DNA from: Planctomycetales bacterium
GTDB taxonomy: Bacteria > Planctomycetota > Planctomycetia > Isosphaerales > Isosphaeraceae
Length of the DNA stretch: 15,836 nt
Assembly: GCA_027459775.1 (NCBI GenBank)
Contig: DAIDHE010000177.1
Span: forward strand, 1-15,836
Direction: 5' to 3'
Shown here one piece after another: positions 7,205 to 15,836 of the stretch (position 1 is the stretch's first letter; each line of letters opens with the position of its first letter). The notes below the pieces were generated by a model. It saw nothing but the letters and a program-made list of their open reading frames with translations, was not told the DNA's origin and did no database searches. A program made the position numbers and the translations under genes.

Positions 7205-7411
7205 CGCGGAAACCGTGAAAGGGTCAGAGGATCAAAATCACACCGCCAAAACCCACCACTCGACTTTACCCCCGCGGAAGACAGGCTTGCAAGATTCCTC
7301 CCTTCTTAGCCGGGACAGCGTTCCTGGCGAAAAGTTTGGTTGCTGGACTCCTGGGCCTGGTAGAGTAGTCCCTCGAACCCTTCCATGCCTGGTACTGAGG
7401 CGTAGACGACG

Positions 7412-7912
7412 ATGCGATGGACTCAGCGGTTGACCATCATTCTGATCGCGGTCGTCGCTACCGCGGCCCGGTTCGCCACCGGGCTCAGAAGACGAACCCG
7501 CTTCGGGCCATTACCGCAAGTCGAGCCGATCTGGGAAGCTCCCGACCCAGGCACCCCGAGCGACTTCGCACTGTACATTGGCAACAGGGCGTTCGAGCCG
7601 GGCGCGATCGATATCCGCGTCGAGATCGACGGCCGCACCGTCGTACAAGAGGTTTTCGAGATCGACATCCAGGTGCCCTACACGCGCTTCCGACTCGACC
7701 TCACTCCCGGGAAGCACCGGCTCAAGGCCGAGACGCGGCGGGGCCAGGCCATCCTGGAGAGAGAAATCTCCATCCCTGAAGAATCGCATATCACGATGAG
7801 CTACTATTACTACGAGCCCTGGTTCCTCGGTGGGGAAACCGGACCGATGATCACGTACCATGCGGAGGAAACTCCGTCGCTACCCCCATGGCTCTGGGGG
7901 GATCATGGCTAG
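7412..7912 (+). CDS. Hypothetical protein with an N-terminal TM/signal-anchor segment, 166 aa
   Basis: Hydrophobic N-terminus MRWTQRLTIILIAVVATAARFA. GAGG 11 nt upstream of ATG 7412. Non-Arg-biased composition, unlike overlapping ORFs. No recognisable family. Confidence 0.4.
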   Translation: MRWTQRLTIILIAVVATAARFATGLRRRTRFGPLPQVEPIWEAPDPGTPSDFALYIGNRAFEPGAIDIRVEIDGRTVVQEVFEIDIQVPYTRFRLDLTPGKHRLKAETRRGQAILEREISIPEESHITMSYYYYEPWFLGGETGPMITYHAEETPSLPPWLWGDHG

Positions 7913-7918
7913 ATGCCT

Positions 7919-8764
7919 TCAGGGTTCGCCCCGCGCTGCGCGAACGGCTTCCTTGTCCGCTCGGTCCGCGGCCTGCGCGAAGAGCCGGTATTGCCTCCGC
8001 ACGGCTTCGACGAGCGTGAGGTGGAGCGGCGCGGCGGGCGCGACGGTTCGGAGGCGACTCAGGATCACCGGCTCCATGGCGGGGGTGGACGGCTGGAGAA
8101 TCGTCGCCGTGGGAGCAAAAGGGAGGAGGAATGCCTGCGTGACCGCCAAACACGCGGCCCCCAGCGCCAGCCCGACGATGTGAGCGTCCGAGAACAGACC
8201 TCCCTGGAGAGCCGTCTCGAAGCCGCTTCGGCTACGGATTCGGGAGAGGGCCTCGGCAGGCGCTCTGCCACCCGATTCCGCCTCCGCGAGCATCCGGGCG
8301 TCGAGGAATTCCTCGAGCACCGCGACGTCCCGCCAGTCCAGGGCGCGCTCGGTCTCCTTGCTCTTGATCAGATCAGGGAGCGCCAGAAATGACAGAGTGC
8401 GTCCACCGTAGAGCCCCTTTTCCTTGCGAGCGTAGAGCTCCGAGAAAGGGGCCAGCAGGTGGTTTCCACACCAGAACTCGAGCCATTCCTCGCGGCCGTC
8501 CGCTAGCCGGCCTATCTGAAACCGTCGAAACGAGTGTGGACGCCAAGTCGGCCCCTCGATCACGGGTTTCCCGGCGAAAAGCGGGGTTGCCGGAAGTCGC
8601 GACGAGAGATCGGCCCAACTGTTAGGCGCAAGATGCAGGGCAAAGTCGGTGGTGTTACGACTCAACCCGTAGTACCTGACGGCGTGCCCCCCCATGACGA
8701 GGCAGGGAATCCCAACGCCGTCCAAGGCCGCGATGATTTCGGCGAGCCGGCTCTCGGGGTTCAC
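7919..8764 (-). CDS. Hypothetical protein, 281 aa, with an N-terminal nucleotidyltransferase-fold-like motif (GG..A..YG..R.T.D) in which the second Asp is degenerate
   Basis: LAEIIAALDGVGIPCLVMGGHAVRYYGLSRNTTDFALHL resembles the hGG..A....G...R..DhDh NTase signature (for example the aminoglycoside 2-double-prime adenylyltransferase LinB/Lnu type), but reads TDFA rather than D-x-D. GTG start at 8764 overlaps the stop of the upstream small ORF (GTGA junction). GAGGA 9 nt upstream. Confidence 0.45.
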   Translation of the reverse strand: MNPESRLAEIIAALDGVGIPCLVMGGHAVRYYGLSRNTTDFALHLAPNSWADLSSRLPATPLFAGKPVIEGPTWRPHSFRRFQIGRLADGREEWLEFWCGNHLLAPFSELYARKEKGLYGGRTLSFLALPDLIKSKETERALDWRDVAVLEEFLDARMLAEAESGGRAPAEALSRIRSRSGFETALQGGLFSDAHIVGLALGAACLAVTQAFLLPFAPTATILQPSTPAMEPVILSRLRTVAPAAPLHLTLVEAVRRQYRLFAQAADRADKEAVRAARGEP

Positions 8765-8997
8765 AAGAACGAGTCCTCGCGGCCCCGGCTGCCGCGGACG
8801 CGGAGGAGCGTGATGAGCGGATGCTCCGCGAGTTCTTCATCGGGGATCGGCTGCCCGAGCAATGCGAGGATCTCGGGGAGCGACTCGTCGAGGTAGATTT
8901 CCTCGGCCTCGTCCAGGGTTCTCGCCCTCCCGTCGAGGATGAGGCGCAGAACCGGATCGTCCGACACGCCAGGGATTTCCCCGTCCTTTGTCTCCAT
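8761..8997 (-). CDS. Small acidic hypothetical protein (78 aa), translationally coupled to the downstream 281-aa gene
   Basis: ATG at 8997 with GAGGGA 6 nt upstream. Acidic composition (many D/E). 4-nt overlap with the start of the downstream gene. No family recognised. Overlapping plus-strand ORF 8821-9027 is judged spurious. Confidence 0.3.
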   Translation of the reverse strand: METKDGEIPGVSDDPVLRLILDGRARTLDEAEEIYLDESLPEILALLGQPIPDEELAEHPLITLLRVRGSRGREDSFL

Positions 8998-9139
8998 CGA
9001 TCTTCCCTCGGCCGCCGTCGAGCTTGATTCTCGTCAGATCCACTTTAACACAAACGTCGACCGCCGTCGGGAGGGTCAGCCAAGGACGCCTACTTTTCGC
9101 CGCCAACAATGCGCGCATGAATGGATAGTCAGGCCAAAC

Positions 9140-9147
9140 GGGGGGGG
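9140..9147. repeat. G8 / C8 homopolymeric tract in the intergenic region upstream of the minus-strand small-ORF / NTase-like pair
   Basis: Read directly: aaacGGGGGGGGccaaat. About 145 nt upstream of ATG 8997 on the minus strand. Confidence 0.8.
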
Positions 9148-9238
9148 CCAAATGGTGGCTGTCCGCGATCGTTCGAGTTGGTCGATCAGGTCACGCGACA
9201 GTGAGACTACCTATGAATACCCACAACTTGTCAACCAA

Positions 9239-12191
9239 TCAAAATGTCCTTTTTAGGATTTCCCATTGATACTCAGCGATGGTCACTCCGGACTTGCCAT
9301 CGCGGCGTGGAGGGAACGCCGCGATCGCCGGTTGCACCGGCGCCGGCATCCCCGAGCCCTGCGCCGCCGGCTGGAACGTGGCGCCGGTGGAATCTTCGCC
9401 CACGCCGTCAAACGCACGCCGCTTCCCCGTGTCGTCCAGTTGCACGAACAGCTTCGATCGGTCCACGTGCTCGACGAGGTCAAAACGCGTCTCTCGCTTG
9501 CCGTCGGCGGTGACCCGCACCAGCCGAGGCCGACCCCAGAAGCCCCATTTCCAGCTCGGTGCGTTGCGGTCCATGGCCCGCGAATACGCATCGGTAATCA
9601 ACCGCAAGTGGACCGCGCCGGTTTTCTCAACGACCGCGTCCAGCGGGATGTCCCAATGCTGCCAGCCGGGATCCTTCTTGAGCAGCGCGCGTCGGAAGAT
9701 GGTGTGCCAGGCCCCATCGCCGCCGCGCGCCTGCACCGTGAAGACACTGCCAAGACAGAAGTAGTCGACGTCCCTGCTCAGACCGAGGTCGGTGCTGAGA
9801 TACAGGCCCGGCTCGTCCGCCTTGGCCTTTCGCGGGAGGACATCCACCTGTTTTTCCCAGTCGATGACAGAGCGGCGTTTCGTGGCGTTTCTTACCGACT
9901 CCGGAACCGGCCGGTTCCGGGAGGTCTTCAACCCGGCCTCGCCGCCGCAGTCCGACACGAACCGAGCGCGCAGGGATTCCAGCTTCTTCCGGAGCTGTGT
10001 TCCTTCGTCGCCGGTCTTGTAATCGTCTTCGTAATTGGCGAAGTAGAGAAGCTCGCTGGTTCTGGCGACATCCACCGCCGTGTCAAGATGCTTGGCCGCG
10101 GCATCGATCGGGCCGCCCTCGACGATCACCTGCTTCGCCTTGCGCGAGGCCAGGGCGGCCGTGCAAAGCAACTGCGATCGCCGGGTCGACACGCAAAAGA
10201 GGCGCAGCCTCTCCGTTTTGAAGAGCGTGTCGGCCGCCGCGTCGTAGCCATCCCATCGGAAGGCATCCGGGTCGTAGACCGGATGGTACAGGTCAGGCTC
10301 GCGGCCCGCGTAAAGCTTGAAGGCTTGCCGCGCAAGTCGGTCGGCTTCGTCCGCCATCACGGCCAGGAGCTGAAAGTCCCTGTGCAGCGGACCTCCGAAG
10401 AAAACGATGAAGGGATCGTCCTCGAGCACATGACTTTCGGACACGCAAGAATTCACGCCGTACGCCTTCCCGACCAAGGCGCCCACGTCACCCCCGTAAT
10501 AGATCCGGTACGCGTAATCCAGGAATCCGAAGTCGTCGTTGTTGTTGATGCCGGGCACGCCGCCGGGCCGCCAGAGATACTGCGCGCCCAGATAGCCGAA
10601 GACCTCGGTATTGGTCCACTGGAAGATGTAAGCCGTCGAGCCGAAGCCGCCGGCCGCGACCATCCGCCGCTGCTTGGCGCGATCCTCGGCGATGTCCACG
10701 CCGAGGTCGCCATGCACTCGATCATTGTTGATGTTGGAGATCCGCCAGCAGCCCGCCGCCGCTCCGCCGCGCCCGCCCAGAGTGGCGGCGCGATCCTTGC
10801 CCAGCAGCCTCACGTATTCCTCCTCGTTGTCCTCGAACAAGACGAACGGCAGCTTGCGACCCTGCTTCCGATCGATCAGCGCGAACCATTTCTCCCGATC
10901 CGCCCGGTCCTTGCCCTCTTTCATGATCCTGTTCATAAGAATATGGGAAATCAAATACATGTCTGGATCCGGTCGGCCGAGCGCCCGCGCGTGCTTGCGG
11001 ATGATCTGATCGAACTCGCGGGCGAGCCATGTGTAGTACTCGACATGCACGCCCAGCGGCGGTTGGTTGTTGTCCGTATCGGCGACGGATCGGAACCCGT
11101 ATTCCTCGGCCCAGGGCGCCCAGAACGTGTTGTAGCACTGCTCGTTCTGGTTCGGAACCTGGTAGGTTTCGGGGTCTTCGAAGACGAAGCCGTTGAAGCC
11201 CTGTTCCAGTATCCGCTTGATGAAGGCGTCCCAGTACTCGTGGACTCCAGGCGTGAACGGGATCGCCTCCCGAACGAAACTTTTCGCGTCAGCCTCGGGG
11301 TGGCGCTGGATGTAGAGGCCGTTGAACGTGTTCTTGCCGATGTAGGCGTGAACCTGGACGCCGCGGGCATTGGCATACCGGATCAGCTCGGGCAGGAACT
11401 CTTTCTTGATGTTTCGGTGGGTGTAACGGTAAGGAGTCTTTCGACCGGTCATCGGGTCATGGCGAAAGGAGTCGAAGTCGAGAGTATCCGCCTCGTAACC
11501 CGGCAGTGAGAAGGGCCACATCCCATACATGCAGACGGCCCAGGCGTTGCACTTGTGGAGCAGGGACCAATCGGCCATCCATTTCCACTCATCTAGGCTC
11601 CAGTTGCCGTTGTCGTATCCCTCGAAGCGGCTTCCCCATCCGGCGTACCAGGCCAACTGCGGCGCCAGGCAGCGCCATCTTGCATCAGGCCAGTCGCGAA
11701 TCGCGAGGCAGGGAATCGAGTCACGGTTCTCCCTGGCGGCCTGAATGGCCAGTTGGTTGACGGTCTGCACCCCGTAGAGCATCCCCCACTTACCCTTGCC
11801 GACGACCGTGACGCCGTCGGCGGTGATCGTCAGCACCGACGCCTCGGGACTGGTCTCGGCCTTGTCGAGGAACGACCTTTGCTCGTCCGTCAACCACCGA
11901 GCTTGGTATCCTTCCTCCACCGAGCCCAGACGGAAGGTCACCGACCGTCCTTGTTTCGGCAGATACCCGCGCAGCGACCGGACCGCGATTTGTTCCGTTT
12001 CCGAGGGCGCACGATCCGACTTGCTCTCTGGCGGACCCAGGACGAAGCGGCCGCCCTGGTGCTTGATCTCTTGTGGATAGGGCAACAGCTCCAACGTGTC
12101 CGCGCGAGCCGCCCCGTGGGCGACGCCCACGCCGCTGCCTACACCAACCGCCAGCGTGAAGGCCAAAACCAAAATAATATGAGCATTCATC
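9239..12191 (-). CDS. Large secreted glycoside-hydrolase-like protein with a GH20-like (beta-hexosaminidase / DUF4838-type) N-terminal domain and a C-terminal beta-rich (possibly carbohydrate-binding) domain
   Basis: Likely start ATG 12191 (MNAHIILVLAFTLAVGVGSGVGVAHGAARA, a signal peptide) with GGAAGGG 9 nt upstream. The ORF track's M at 12247 is an upstream in-frame extension. LLPYPQEIKHQGGRFVLG, GMLYGVQTVNQLA and IRDWPDARWR resemble the GH20 N-domain and the start of the catalytic domain (P-x-P ... G-x-FYG-xQTL ... I-x-D-x-P-x-x-x-WRG). Trp/Tyr-rich TIM-barrel-like middle region. Confidence 0.6.
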
Positions 12192-13770: not shown

Positions 13771-14679
13771 TCAGGGGATCTGGGCGGTCACCTGATGGAG
13801 CTGGCCGTCCTTGATCGCCTGGTAGTTGATCTTGAGCGCGGTGTCGGGCAGTGCGTTGGCGATAATCCAGGCCAGGTTGCCCGCGACCTCGGTCTTGTAG
13901 CCGTTGGCCGACAGAAGCACGTCGCCAACCTGAAGCCCCGCCTTTTCCGCGGGCATGCCGGAATAGATCTTGCTGATCCTCATCCCGCGCGCGCCCGTGC
14001 TGGAGACGGCCGGTTGCTCGTCAATGCCCAGGAAGCGCTGCTGGGTCGTGGCCGCGACCCCGCCATAGCCCGAGGAGTATCCAAAGCCGCCCACGCCGGG
14101 ATACGAATAATCATAGTATGGGTAAGCTCCCCCATAACCGAGGGCGCTGCCATAACCCAGGCCAAAGCCGTCCCAGCCATAGCCGCCCAGACCGTAGCCG
14201 CCCAGACCATAGCCGCCCAGACCATAGCCCAGACCGTAGCCCAGACCCAGGCCGTAGCCGCCCAACCCGTACCCGAGGCCATAGCCATACCCCAGGCCGT
14301 AGCCGCCCAGACCGTAGCCGCCGAGTCCGTATCCCAGGCCGTAGCCGCCATAAAAGCCGGGGTAGAAGCCGCCATATCCGCCAAAGCCACGACCGTAGCC
14401 GTAGCCGCGACCGTAGCCATAGCCGCCATAGCCGCGACCGTAGCCGCCCATGCCGCCGTAGCCGCCCATGCGGCCGCCAAAGCCGCCCATGCCGCCGCCA
14501 AAGCCGCCCATATGGCCGCCGCCGAAGCCACCGCCACCGAAGCCACCGCCATGCCCACCGCCTCCACCACCACCTCCGCCATGGGCGAAGGCCGAGGACG
14601 CACCCAGGCCAAGGAGCCCGAGCGCGGACCCCAGGGCCAGAACAACCAGCCACCTCTGATGCCGCACAGAATTCTTCAT
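13771..14679 (-). CDS. Secreted protein with a long Gly/Tyr/Met/His low-complexity repeat region fused to a C-terminal PDZ domain
   Basis: Likely start ATG 14679 (MKNSVRHQRWLVVLALGSALGLLGLGASSAFA-HG, a signal peptide) with GGAGAGGAG 7 nt upstream. The track's M at 14745 is an in-frame extension. About 190 aa of G9-H-G3-F..., MGGFGGGMGG, GYGRGYG and (GYGLG)n repeats. C-terminal GMRISKIYSGMPAEKAGLQVGDVLLSANGYKTEVAGNLAWIIANALPDTALKINYQAIKDGQLHQV is a canonical PDZ. Confidence 0.6.
   Translation of the reverse strand: MKNSVRHQRWLVVLALGSALGLLGLGASSAFAHGGGGGGGGGHGGGFGGGGFGGGHMGGFGGGMGGFGGRMGGYGGMGGYGRGYGGYGYGRGYGYGRGFGGYGGFYPGFYGGYGLGYGLGGYGLGGYGLGYGYGLGYGLGGYGLGLGYGLGYGLGGYGLGGYGLGGYGWDGFGLGYGSALGYGGAYPYYDYSYPGVGGFGYSSGYGGVAATTQQRFLGIDEQPAVSSTGARGMRISKIYSGMPAEKAGLQVGDVLLSANGYKTEVAGNLAWIIANALPDTALKINYQAIKDGQLHQVTAQIP
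14050..14580 (-). repeat. Coding tandem-repeat / low-complexity region: degenerate 15-nt (GYGLG) and related Gly-codon repeats
   Basis: Plus strand shows reiterated ccgtagccgcccagacc / catagcc / gccaaagccgcccatgccgcc units. Overlapping Arg/Trp- or Ala-rich ORFs in other frames and on the plus strand are frame artefacts of this repeat. Confidence 0.7.
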
Positions 14680-14970
14680 CTTTGGGCTCCTCTCCGCAAA
14701 GCTCACGTCCCTCGCCAGTGAAATGAGATCACACGCTCCGGACAATCGCCGGTCGCGACCCCAATCGCGAAGGGCCTCCTCTTATAGAATACGCACAACA
14801 CGCTTCGCCGGACCATGGATCCTGGAAAACCCGCTCGCGAGGAACCAGCACACGATTCGACTTGAATCAACGAAAATCCACGCCACGATTTGCTCGAGGA
14901 CTCCTGACCACCGCGTTTTCCCCAAGCGAACAGCAGCCCGAAATCGCGCCGGGGAAAAATCTCCAGACCC

Positions 14971-14999
14971 TTGACGACCGCCGTCCGAGCGGATAATCT
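14971..14999 (+). promoter_or_regulatory. Candidate sigma70-like promoter: TTGACG, then a 15-17 nt spacer, then GATAAT/TAATCT, reading toward the gene at 15137
   Basis: Read directly in the 390-nt lower-GC divergent intergenic region: cccTTGACGaccgccgtccgagcgGATAATCTg. It would give a 5'UTR of about 130 nt. Confidence 0.25.
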
Positions 15000-15136
15000 G
15001 CTCAACGCATCTGATTCTGATCACGTTTCCGCGATCTGCTCCGCGTCAAGCATTCAAAACGATTGCTTTTCTGAATCCGTTCCGTGCGTCGTTTGTCGGT
15101 CTCTCTCCCAGATCCGCAAGCACCAAGGTTCGCTCC

Positions 15137-15526
15137 ATGAGTCGCCCCGGCCGCCGCAAAGGTGCTCCGCGCACCGCACCGCACCGCACCGCACCGCACC
15201 GCACCGCACCGCACCGCGCGGCGAGGCTCTCCGTTGAGCCGCTCGAGCCCCGCTGGCTCATGAACGCCGACGGCCGTCACCCGCGGCCGGATCCGCCGGT
15301 GGGTCTGCTCGACAAGTCGTTTGGATCGCTGCTCGAATCGCACTCCGACGCCGGCTCGTTCGCACGGAGCCTCCTTCAGCATCCCGGTCGGGCGAAAGCG
15401 GCTGGGCTTGAAGGATTGCGGCACGCCCTCCGCGAACACGCCGGCTATGCGGGCCGGTACGGCTGGGGCGCGACCCTGACGCATGAGCTCGACACCCACA
15501 GGCGATACGCCGCGGCCCACCACTAG
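15137..15526 (+). CDS. N-terminal segment (129 aa) of a putative large surface protein. Basic N-terminus with three RTAPH repeats, then LSVEPLEPRWLMNADG. Terminated by an in-frame TAG at 15524-15526.
   Basis: ATG 15137 with a weak AAGG 9 nt upstream. (GCACC)9 at 15171-15215 encodes (RTAPH)3 in frame. The same reading frame continues open after the TAG into an Ig-like domain. Confidence 0.4.
   Translation: MSRPGRRKGAPRTAPHRTAPHRTAPHRAARLSVEPLEPRWLMNADGRHPRPDPPVGLLDKSFGSLLESHSDAGSFARSLLQHPGRAKAAGLEGLRHALREHAGYAGRYGWGATLTHELDTHRRYAAAHH
15171..15215 (+). repeat. (GCACC)x9 perfect pentanucleotide microsatellite within the 5' coding region (or leader) of the surface-protein gene
   Basis: Read directly: nine uninterrupted GCACC units, 45 nt. 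Confidence 0.9.
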
Positions 15527-15836
15527 ACCACCTTTCTGGCGACCCCAGCACCAGCCCCCTCCCCGAGCATCCCCGCCCCGACCTCGGCGAACCGGCCGGC
15601 CCGCTCATCCCCCGCGCCGGTCGCTCAAGAGCCACTGACGATCTCCGTCGGCGGCACCCTCGACGTCAACCTGCCCAACCTCGGCCTGGGCGCCGCCGGG
15701 CTGACCTACACCATCACGCCCCAACCGCTGCCGGCGCATATGACCTTCTATCGCGGCACCGGCGAATTCATCTTCTCGCCCGCGCCCGGCCAGACGGGCA
15801 CTTACGATTTCTCGGTCGCGGTGAGCGGCCCGGGCG
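15527..15836 (+). CDS. Continuation, partial because the window ends, of a large surface protein: Pro/Ala/Ser-rich linker followed by a putative-Ig / cadherin-like (Dystroglycan-type, He_PIG-like) domain
   Basis: Same frame as 15137-15526 and no stop through 15836. TTFLATPAPAPSPSIPAPTSANRPARSSPAPVAQEPLTISVGGTLDVNLPNLGLGAAGLTYTITPQPLPAHMTFYRGTGEFIFSPAPGQTGTYDFSVAVSGPG. The L-x-Y-x-I-x ... G-x-F-x-F-x-P-x-x-x-x-x-G-x-Y-x-F-x-V pattern is typical of bacterial putative Ig domains. No canonical start codon between the TAG and 15747. Confidence 0.5.

What the first reader, a model, noticed from the sequence alone, without database searches (positions are those of the whole stretch)
15171..15215. 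(GCACC)x9 pentanucleotide microsatellite at the 5' end of a large surface-protein gene: candidate phase-variation switch
Nine perfect tandem GCACC units lie 34 nt downstream of the ATG at 15137, translating in frame as (RTAPH)3. Because the unit is 5 nt, gain or loss of a repeat by slipped-strand mispairing shifts the reading frame (only multiples of 3 units are neutral). The present count of 9 (45 nt) keeps the frame open. This is the architecture of simple-sequence contingency loci (for example pentanucleotide and tetranucleotide repeats in Haemophilus and Neisseria surface-antigen genes). Here it sits in a gene encoding an Ig/cadherin-like surface protein, a plausible target for ON/OFF switching. 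If translation instead starts at the downstream ATG 15260, the repeat would lie in the leader and could still alter expression. Pentanucleotide contingency repeats are not, as far as I know, reported in high-GC environmental lineages.
Basis: partly seen in the sequence, partly recalled or inferred. Interest (0 to 1): 0.65.

Follow-up and report, generated by a model that had tools for sequence, protein, structure and literature searches.

The report
Frame-shifting microsatellite in a broken gene
A perfect nine-unit five-base repeat sits just after the start codon of a planctomycete export-signal/Rhs-type surface-protein gene and looks like a classic on/off frameshift switch, but this gene copy already has a premature stop codon, so the repeat is more likely a recent slippage expansion in a decaying gene than a working switch.

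Summary
A perfect (CGCAC)9.6 tract lies at 15170-15217, 34 nt after ATG 15137, and reads in frame as (RTAPH)3.

Relatives show that ATG 15137 is the true start. The tract lies between it and the planctomycete export motif RLxxExLExRxL (codons 30-42).

Unit number sets the frame:
- n = 0 mod 3 joins the ATG to the motif.
- n = 2 mod 3 joins only a poorly placed GTG at 15162.
- n = 1 mod 3 joins no start.

This is the architecture of Neisseria opa.

It replaces a near-invariant Leu (TTG in the closest relatives). TAG is an ordinary stop elsewhere in this window, and two invariant Asn residues downstream are also replaced. The ORF is therefore 129 aa, not a large open gene.

The closest relatives (about 95% nt identity, eight contigs) carry 2 units (seven) or 1 unit (one). 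Those copies are frameshifted or truncated too. No allele from the same strain could be found, so switching is untested.

(GCACC) arrays of 5 or more units occur in over 120 species' genomes, mostly actinomycetes.

Most likely this is a lineage-specific slippage expansion in a decaying copy of an Rhs-type gene. It is a structural candidate, not a demonstrated contingency locus.

The parts
15062..15136 (+). Leader shared with the related gene copies. Homology to L001-L008 begins here; everything upstream is unrelated.
   Evidence: blastn of the window against L001-L008 starts at 15062. There are 5 mismatches in 75 nt. No sigma-70-like promoter was scored and there is no Rfam match.
15137..15139 (+). 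ATG, the ancestral start codon (MSRP..).
   Evidence: Family N-termini are MSRRPRKP.., MSRRKDTRR.., MSRRAPRK.., in frame with the export motif. An AAGG lies 9-12 nt upstream (reading it as a ribosome-binding site is inference).
15162..15164 (+). GTG in the +1 frame. It is the only start that reaches the export motif when the unit number is 2 mod 3.
   Evidence: Frame enumeration. In the 2-unit relatives, tblastn alignments of P0015 start exactly at this GTG (L001 position 9104). The AAGG abuts the GTG, so initiation is probably weak (inference).
15170..15217 (+). Perfect (CGCAC)9.6 microsatellite, equal to (GCACC)9 at 15171-15215. It encodes (RTAPH)3 and has no stop in any frame.
   Evidence: Relatives carry 2 units (seven loci) or 1 unit (L002) at the same site.
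15224..15262 (+). Coding sequence of the planctomycete export motif RLSVEPLEPRWLM (codons 30-42).
   Evidence: PF07595 Planc_extracel matches residues 30-45 at 16.8 bits, below the cut-off of 25.5. It fits the published consensus RRLxxExLExRxLLA (PMC8567305). Its DNA is conserved even in the 54%-identity relative L139.
15137..15526 (+). The ORF as it now stands: 129 codons plus TAG.
   Evidence: The identical 129-aa protein P0002 is the only member of its cluster.
15524..15526 (+). Premature in-frame TAG. The closest relatives have TTG (Leu), and Leu is near-invariant in the family.
   Evidence: TAG ends the GT2 and methyltransferase genes in this window, so there is no codon reassignment.
15527..15836 (+). 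Same-frame continuation running to the window end: Pro-rich linker plus a partial He_PIG/Big_9 Ig-like domain (about 15614-15836). Not translatable from any start after the TAG.
   Evidence: It is 95% identical to L001-type copies without indels. The window lineage has derived changes N201H and N205Y at invariant positions.

Best explanation
The tract is a slippage-prone pentanucleotide microsatellite that expanded, in this lineage only, from a 1-2-unit proto-repeat. It lies between the initiator ATG (15137) and the planctomycete export motif of a gene whose intact relatives are extracellular proteins of more than 1,200 aa with Ig-like, FG-GAP and RHS-repeat domains.

Mechanically it is a translational frameshift switch of the opa type. 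Unit numbers of 0 mod 3 link the ATG to the export motif and the rest of the protein, as 9 units do now. Numbers of 2 mod 3 link only a poorly placed GTG. Numbers of 1 mod 3 link no start codon.

In this genome the switch has nothing left to control. A TTG-to-TAG nonsense mutation at codon 130 cuts the product to 129 aa, and conserved residues downstream are already being replaced. The tract is therefore best read as a recent microsatellite expansion in a decaying, probably multi-copy, Rhs-type gene. It is a potential or former contingency locus, not a demonstrated one.

Shown: the tract, its position, the frame arithmetic, the stop codon and the unit numbers in relatives. Inferred: slippage as the origin, weak use of the GTG, and pseudogene status.
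For: - Perfect 9.6-unit tract.
- ATG 15137 is the ancestral start and is in frame with the motif.
- Frame model for 0-12 units.
- Relatives with 2 units (seven contigs) and 1 unit (one contig) at the same site, about 95% identical elsewhere.
- In-frame TAG where the eight relatives aligned across that column have Leu, one garbled sequence apart; the closest have TTG.
- TAG is a normal stop here.
- Eight amino-acid changes are derived in the window lineage against four in the sister lineage. Six of the eight lie downstream of the TAG, including two at positions where all eight outgroups have Asn.
- The sister copies are also compromised: the ATG is out of frame, or the motif is destroyed by a compensating extra C, and homology to long relatives stops at about aa 341.
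- No other SSR was found in about 45 kb of the same or sister genomes.
- Arrays of the same motif are widespread in high-GC bacteria, so such tracts arise readily.
Against: - dN/dS between the window and sister copies is about 0.35 (14 synonymous and 14 non-synonymous changes over 576 nt). The gene was therefore under constraint for much of the divergence, and any decay is recent.
- The tract is in frame with the ATG, which has a one-in-three chance if neutral.
- The tract is uninterrupted and lies exactly where a switch would act.
- The TAG could be a minority or strain-private lesion in a population that still carries open alleles.
- The window ends at codon 233, so the rest of the gene is unseen.
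Confidence: 0.55

Rival explanations
1. This is an active contingency locus. Slippage of the (CGCAC)n tract switches the exported Rhs-type protein among strong (ATG frame), weak (GTG frame) and off states within the population. The TAG is a recent, strain-private or polymorphic lock-off mutation.
For: - The tract exceeds the cut-off of 5 or more units used for pentanucleotide phase-variable loci and falls in the opa range of 7-21 units (PMC5953494).
- It lies in the export-signal region of an extracellular protein family.
- Two start codons sit in two frames.
- The 5' end shows repeated frame changes among relatives (9, 2, 1 units, plus a C4-to-C5 change).
- dN/dS of about 0.35 indicates function until recently.
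Against: - The premature TAG and the replaced invariant residues.
- Seven relatives from different samples all have exactly 2 units.
- No allele of the window's own copy with a different unit number is on record.
- No second SSR locus was found in the available DNA.
- No read data were available.
Confidence: 0.25
2. This is an in-frame length polymorphism. The tract grew in 15-nt steps (3 units, one RTAPH each), simply lengthening the basic segment before the export motif. Frame-breaking variants are removed by selection rather than used.
For: - Nine units equal exactly three RTAPH inserts, in frame.
- The tract encodes the same R/T/A/P/H cycle in every frame and contains no stop. This follows directly from the sequence.
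- Family N-termini vary in the length of the basic segment.
Against: - Relatives with 1 and 2 units show that single 5-nt steps occur and persist.
- The gene is interrupted anyway.
- No relative has 3 or 6 units.
Confidence: 0.12
3. This is an assembly artefact. Either the tract length is wrong, or the join at 15062 is a chimera between the PDZ-gene neighbourhood and a copy of a multi-copy gene.
For: - Homology to the related copies begins abruptly at 15062 and the upstream context differs.
- The contig ends inside the gene at 15836.
- The syntenic contig L137 breaks in the neighbouring Gly/Tyr repeat.
Against: - A 48-nt tract is shorter than a normal sequencing read, so its length is unlikely to be mis-assembled (inference).
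- The flanks of the tract align base for base with the relatives.
- The window is otherwise 97.7-99% collinear with independent assemblies up to 14284.
Confidence: 0.05

Closest known systems
Neisseria opa genes: (CTCTT/CTTCT)n pentanucleotide coding repeat in the signal-peptide region
   Same: Both have a pentanucleotide unit within the first codons of the ORF, in the region encoding the export signal of a surface protein. In both, the unit number sets the reading frame. The tract length of 9 falls within the opa range of 7-21. Alleles with 1-4 units are scored non-variable, like the 1-2-unit relatives here (PMC5953494). That the opa repeat lies in the signal-peptide region is from my own knowledge.
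   Different: There is no sequence or protein relationship. This is a single locus rather than a family of 4-12 switching paralogs. The organism is a free-living planctomycete, not a host-adapted pathogen. The downstream ORF is broken by a TAG. No switching has been observed.
Haemophilus influenzae lic1 (CAAT)n, with alternative start codons in different frames
   Same: Two start codons in two frames lie upstream of the repeat, so unit number would give strong, weak and no expression (frame model). The lic1 comparison is from my own knowledge and was not checked in a paper here.
   Different: The lic1 unit is a tetranucleotide, not a pentanucleotide. The second start here is a GTG with no properly spaced ribosome-binding sequence, and its use is not shown. 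The gene product is unrelated.
Planctomycete cell-surface proteins with the N-terminal export motif RRLxxExLExRxLLA (Pfam PF07595, Studholme et al. 2004)
   Same: The N-terminus RLSVEPLEPRWLM fits the consensus. Relatives carry the motif right after a short basic segment (PMC8567305).
   Different: The Pfam score is below the gathering threshold (16.8 against 25.5 bits). A 15-aa repeat-encoded insert separates the start from the motif, which no relative has.
Rhs/YD-repeat giant extracellular proteins (polymorphic-toxin type)
   Same: Relatives at 42-45% identity carry the same N-terminal domain, He_PIG and CarboxypepD_reg domains. These are followed by FG-GAP, TcdB_toxin_midN and RHS repeats. 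Truncated, displaced copies are typical of such loci (my own knowledge).
   Different: The window ends at codon 233, before any FG-GAP or RHS region. The closest copies stop being homologous at about aa 341. No toxin or immunity module was seen.

Membership tests
SSR contingency locus (translational phase variation, opa type) | Perfect simple-sequence tract above the length at which slippage is frequent (5 or more units for pentanucleotides in PhasomeIt) | tested here: met
   9.6 perfect units. Cut-off taken from PMC5953494.
SSR contingency locus (translational phase variation, opa type) | Unit length not a multiple of 3, and tract inside the ORF downstream of the true start, so that gain or loss shifts the frame | tested here: met
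   ATG 15137 is confirmed as the start by family N-termini. Frame enumeration.
SSR contingency locus (translational phase variation, opa type) | An intact ORF downstream, so that the in-frame state gives the full-length product | tested here: not met
   In-frame TAG at 15524-15526 where relatives have Leu. TAG is an ordinary stop here.
SSR contingency locus (translational phase variation, opa type) | Unit number varies among closely related strains or within a population | tested here: inconclusive
   The window has 9 units; copies about 95% identical have 2 (seven) or 1 (one). These lie in a different genomic context, and the 2-unit state is fixed. No allele of the window's own copy was found. 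The syntenic contig ends before the gene.
SSR contingency locus (translational phase variation, opa type) | Measured high-frequency, reversible ON/OFF switching | not testable with these tools
   This needs raw reads or culture work.
SSR contingency locus (translational phase variation, opa type) | Part of a repertoire of SSR-bearing genes in the same genome (usual, but not strictly defining) | tested here: inconclusive
   No other SSR above threshold in the window, L001, L003, L008, L137 and L138, about 45 kb of non-redundant sequence. The rest of the genome is not available.
Planc_extracel (PF07595) export-signal proteins | N-terminal RRLxxExLExRxLLA motif scoring above the Pfam threshold | tested here: inconclusive
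   16.8 bits against a cut-off of 25.5 for residues 30-45; relative P0015 scores 22.2 bits. The consensus is matched by eye.
Rhs/YD-repeat extracellular proteins | RHS/YD repeats (with FG-GAP and TcdB-midN) in the same polypeptide | not testable with these tools
   The window ends at codon 233. These domains are present in relatives L130 and L131 at 42-45% identity and next to L139.
He_PIG / bacterial Ig-like domain proteins | Domain match above the Pfam threshold | tested here: inconclusive
   He_PIG scores 21.0 bits against 24 and Big_9 scores 19.4 against 23.6, on a domain cut by the window end. Relatives pass at 27.9-28.4 bits.

The most novel reading that the evidence does not exclude
The tract is a working three-state switch (ATG frame strong, GTG frame weak, third frame off). 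It controls export-competent expression of an Rhs-type giant surface or toxin protein in a free-living Isosphaeraceae planctomycete. This would be the first simple-sequence contingency locus described in that phylum, and one acting through the planctomycete-specific export signal. The TAG would be a lock-off lesion private to the assembled strain.
Probability: 0.17. Interest if true: 0.6.

Novelty: new member of a known kind. Interest (0 to 1): 0.35.

Why it matters
Contingency loci are known almost only from host-adapted pathogens and commensals. A full-text search for planctomycetes together with 'contingency loci' found nothing relevant. If the tract did switch, it would show stochastic control of a cell-surface or competition protein in an environmental planctomycete. 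It would also give a genetic handle on the poorly understood RRLxxExLExRxLLA export signal, because frame changes uncouple the signal from the protein.

As it stands, the value is mainly cautionary. An opa-like architecture can arise in a gene that is already broken, and arrays of the same motif are common in high-GC genomes. Architecture alone is therefore weak evidence.

Tried and rejected
- **Exact-product look-ups.** Searches for the 129-aa ORF and for the 88-aa product from ATG 15260, which a gene caller would report if the tract were out of frame, found nothing.
- **Leader scan.** A 24-nt leader pattern gave no match in JGI metagenome contigs.
- **Orthologous allele through the neighbouring GH20b gene.** The 97.7%-identical contig L137 ends inside the Gly/Tyr-rich repeat at window position 14284. 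L138 is too short.
- **Stop-codon reassignment or read-through of TAG.** Rejected, because the GT2 and methyltransferase genes end in TAG.
- **ATG 15260 as the true start.** Rejected, because relatives carry the export motif upstream of it, in frame with an MSR.. start.
- **RNA element or promoter in the leader.** No Rfam match and no sigma-70 or terminator consensus. A TTGACG...GATAAT pair at 14971-14997 has a 15-nt spacer and lies outside the conserved block.
- **Transposase after the L001-type copy.** My guess that the DNA there encodes an IS200/RAYT transposase got no Pfam support and is withdrawn.
- **Context of (GCACC)n arrays elsewhere.** A GC3-based classification was too crude. It labels even the window's flanks as non-coding, so it is reported only as a lead.
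- **The one planctomycete hit of the motif scan.** In L106 (Phycisphaerae) the array lies in apparently non-coding DNA near a contig end.

Full report
**Observation**

The tract is real. Tandem Repeats Finder gives period 5, 9.6 copies, 100% matches and no indels at 15170-15217. A (GCACC)3 probe with up to 2 mismatches matches 9 times in the window, against 0.10 expected from 200 shuffles.

ATG 15137 precedes the tract by 34 nt. The frame reads MSRPGRRKGAP(RTAPH)3RAARLSVEPLEPRWLMNADG....

The frame ends at TAG 15524-15526 after 129 codons. The Pro-rich linker and the Ig-like domain follow in the same frame, beyond the stop. No ATG, GTG or TTG occurs before ATG 15741.

**What the gene is**

A protein search with the read-through translation found 16 relatives. 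Their alignment shows three things.

- The position of the TAG is a near-invariant Leu (..YAAAHH-L-T..). The closest relatives have TTG there, so the window carries a TTG-to-TAG nonsense change.
- Full N-termini in the family read M-S/N/T-R-R-(basic, about 10-15 aa)-hExLExRxLL. Examples are MSRRAPRKPLRIEVEALERRQLLS and MSRRKDTRRARPELKLLLEPLEPRWLL.
- The ancestral start is therefore ATG 15137, in frame with the motif, and not ATG 15260.

The motif is the planctomycete 'extracellular' signal. PF07595 hits residues 30-45 at 16.8 bits, below the cut-off of 25.5. The literature describes it as a putative N-terminal export signal, RRLxxExLExRxLLA (PMC8567305).

Long relatives (42-45% identity, more than 1,230 aa and still open at the locus end) contain He_PIG, CarboxypepD_reg, FG-GAP, TcdB_toxin_midN and RHS repeats. 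The family is therefore giant Rhs/YD-type extracellular proteins. In the window itself only a sub-threshold He_PIG/Big_9 match is visible before the contig ends.

The neighbouring GH20b protein is closest (73%) to a protein named as coming from an Isosphaeraceae MAG. That places the window in Planctomycetota.

**The tract in relatives**

Eight contigs from independent samples or assemblies carry a copy about 95% identical in the coding region. Homology with the window starts 75 nt before the ATG, at 15062, and the upstream neighbourhood is different: Uma2, T2SSE and MlaDE genes rather than the PDZ gene.

Unit numbers at the tract site:
- Seven contigs carry 2 units.
- One contig (L002) carries 1 unit.
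- The window carries 9 units.

In the 2-unit copies the ATG frame stops after 21 codons. Only a GTG (window 15162) remains in frame with the motif, and tblastn alignments of distant relatives begin exactly at that GTG.

L002 has 1 unit plus an extra C in the C4 run after the motif. This keeps the ATG frame open but reads the motif in the wrong frame (protein P0019).

These copies also lose homology to the long relatives at about aa 341, followed by unrelated DNA. My first guess that this DNA encodes an IS200-like transposase got no Pfam support.

**Frame model**

Rebuilding the window with 0-12 units gives this result.

| Unit number | Start codon in frame with the motif |
|---|---|
| 0 mod 3 | ATG 15137 |
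| 2 mod 3 | GTG 15162 only |
| 1 mod 3 | none |

The GTG is abutted by the AAGG that might serve as its ribosome-binding site, so initiation there is probably poor (inference). The tract has no stop in any frame and encodes the same R-T-A-P-H cycle in each, which follows directly from the sequence.

**Is it a working switch?**

For:
- The tract exceeds the cut-off of 5 or more units used to call pentanucleotide phase-variable loci.
- It sits in the opa range of 7-21 units. opa alleles with 1-4 units are scored non-variable (PMC5953494), which mirrors 9 units against 1-2 here.
- It lies in the export-signal region of an extracellular protein.
- dN/dS between the window and the sister copies is about 0.35 (14 synonymous and 14 non-synonymous changes), so the gene was constrained until recently.

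Against:
- The TAG. TAG is an ordinary stop for two Pfam-supported genes in the window.
- Polarising the amino-acid differences with eight outgroups gives 8 changes derived in the window lineage and 4 in the sister lineage. Six of the eight lie downstream of the TAG, and two (N201H, N205Y) replace residues that are Asn in all outgroups. This argues that the stop is real and not very recent.
- The 2-unit state is fixed in seven assemblies.
- No other allele of the window's own copy is on record.
- The syntenic contig of a 97.7%-identical strain breaks in the adjacent Gly/Tyr repeat before reaching the gene.
- No other SSR above threshold exists in about 45 kb from the same or sister strains, nor in eight family loci from metagenomes.
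Of these, 32 have 9 or more units. The array type is therefore not unusual and arises readily.

**Conclusion**

But the gene it would control is broken in this genome, and its nearest copies are compromised too.

| Reading | Weight |
|---|---|
| Lineage-specific slippage expansion in a decaying copy of an Rhs-type gene | 0.55 |
| Active contingency locus with a private lock-off mutation | 0.25 |
| In-frame length polymorphism | 0.12 |
| Assembly artefact | 0.05 |

Read-level counts of unit number and of the base at 15525 would decide between the first two readings.

Noticed in passing
window 7238-9280: About 2 kb between the RluD-like gene and the GH20b gene is absent from the 97.7%-identical syntenic contig L137, which has only about 144 nt there. 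This is a strain-specific insertion. Its ORFs (7412-7912 +, 7913-8392 +, 7919-8764 -) have no Pfam hit and only a marginal PADLOC hit.
   Followed up: partly
window 13771-14745 (- strand): The gene encodes a signal peptide, about 190 aa of Gly/Tyr-rich low-complexity repeats of (GYGLG)n type, and a C-terminal PDZ domain. At the DNA level it carries repeats of period 12-60 nt at 14155-14581. The related assembly L137 breaks inside this repeat.
   Followed up: partly
L002 1325-1335 (window equivalent 15249-15252): The 1-unit allele carries an extra C in the C4 run just after the export motif. This restores the ATG frame but reads the motif out of frame. The two frameshifts compensate each other and bracket the motif.
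   Followed up: partly
L001 10174-11002 (likewise L005, L006, L008): The closest gene copies lose homology to the long family members at about aa 341 and run into unrelated, lower-GC DNA. An Rhs/YD-shell fragment (229 aa) lies 7 kb upstream on the same contigs. This suggests a rearranged Rhs locus.
   Followed up: partly
L009-L128 (genome-contig hits): (GCACC) arrays of 5 or more units occur in more than 120 species-representative genomes, mainly actinomycetes; 32 of the 120 fetched have 9 or more units and the longest has 53. In a crude GC3 frame test, 78 of 104 arrays lie between flanks with no coding signal, 21 lie on the 5' side of a coding region and 4 on the 3' side.
   Followed up: partly
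window 15737-15751 (codons 201 and 205): The family-invariant Ig-domain motif PQPLPANMTFNRG reads PQPLPAHMTFYRG in the window. Two invariant Asn residues are replaced downstream of the premature stop.
   Followed up: yes
window 15269-15523 (codons 45-129) and relatives: A conserved domain of about 85 aa (..D.D.FA..L..HP..A...GLG.L...LR.HAGYAA.HGWGA.L..EL..HP.YAAAHHLT) follows the export motif in all family members. It has no Pfam or NCBIfam match.
   Followed up: no
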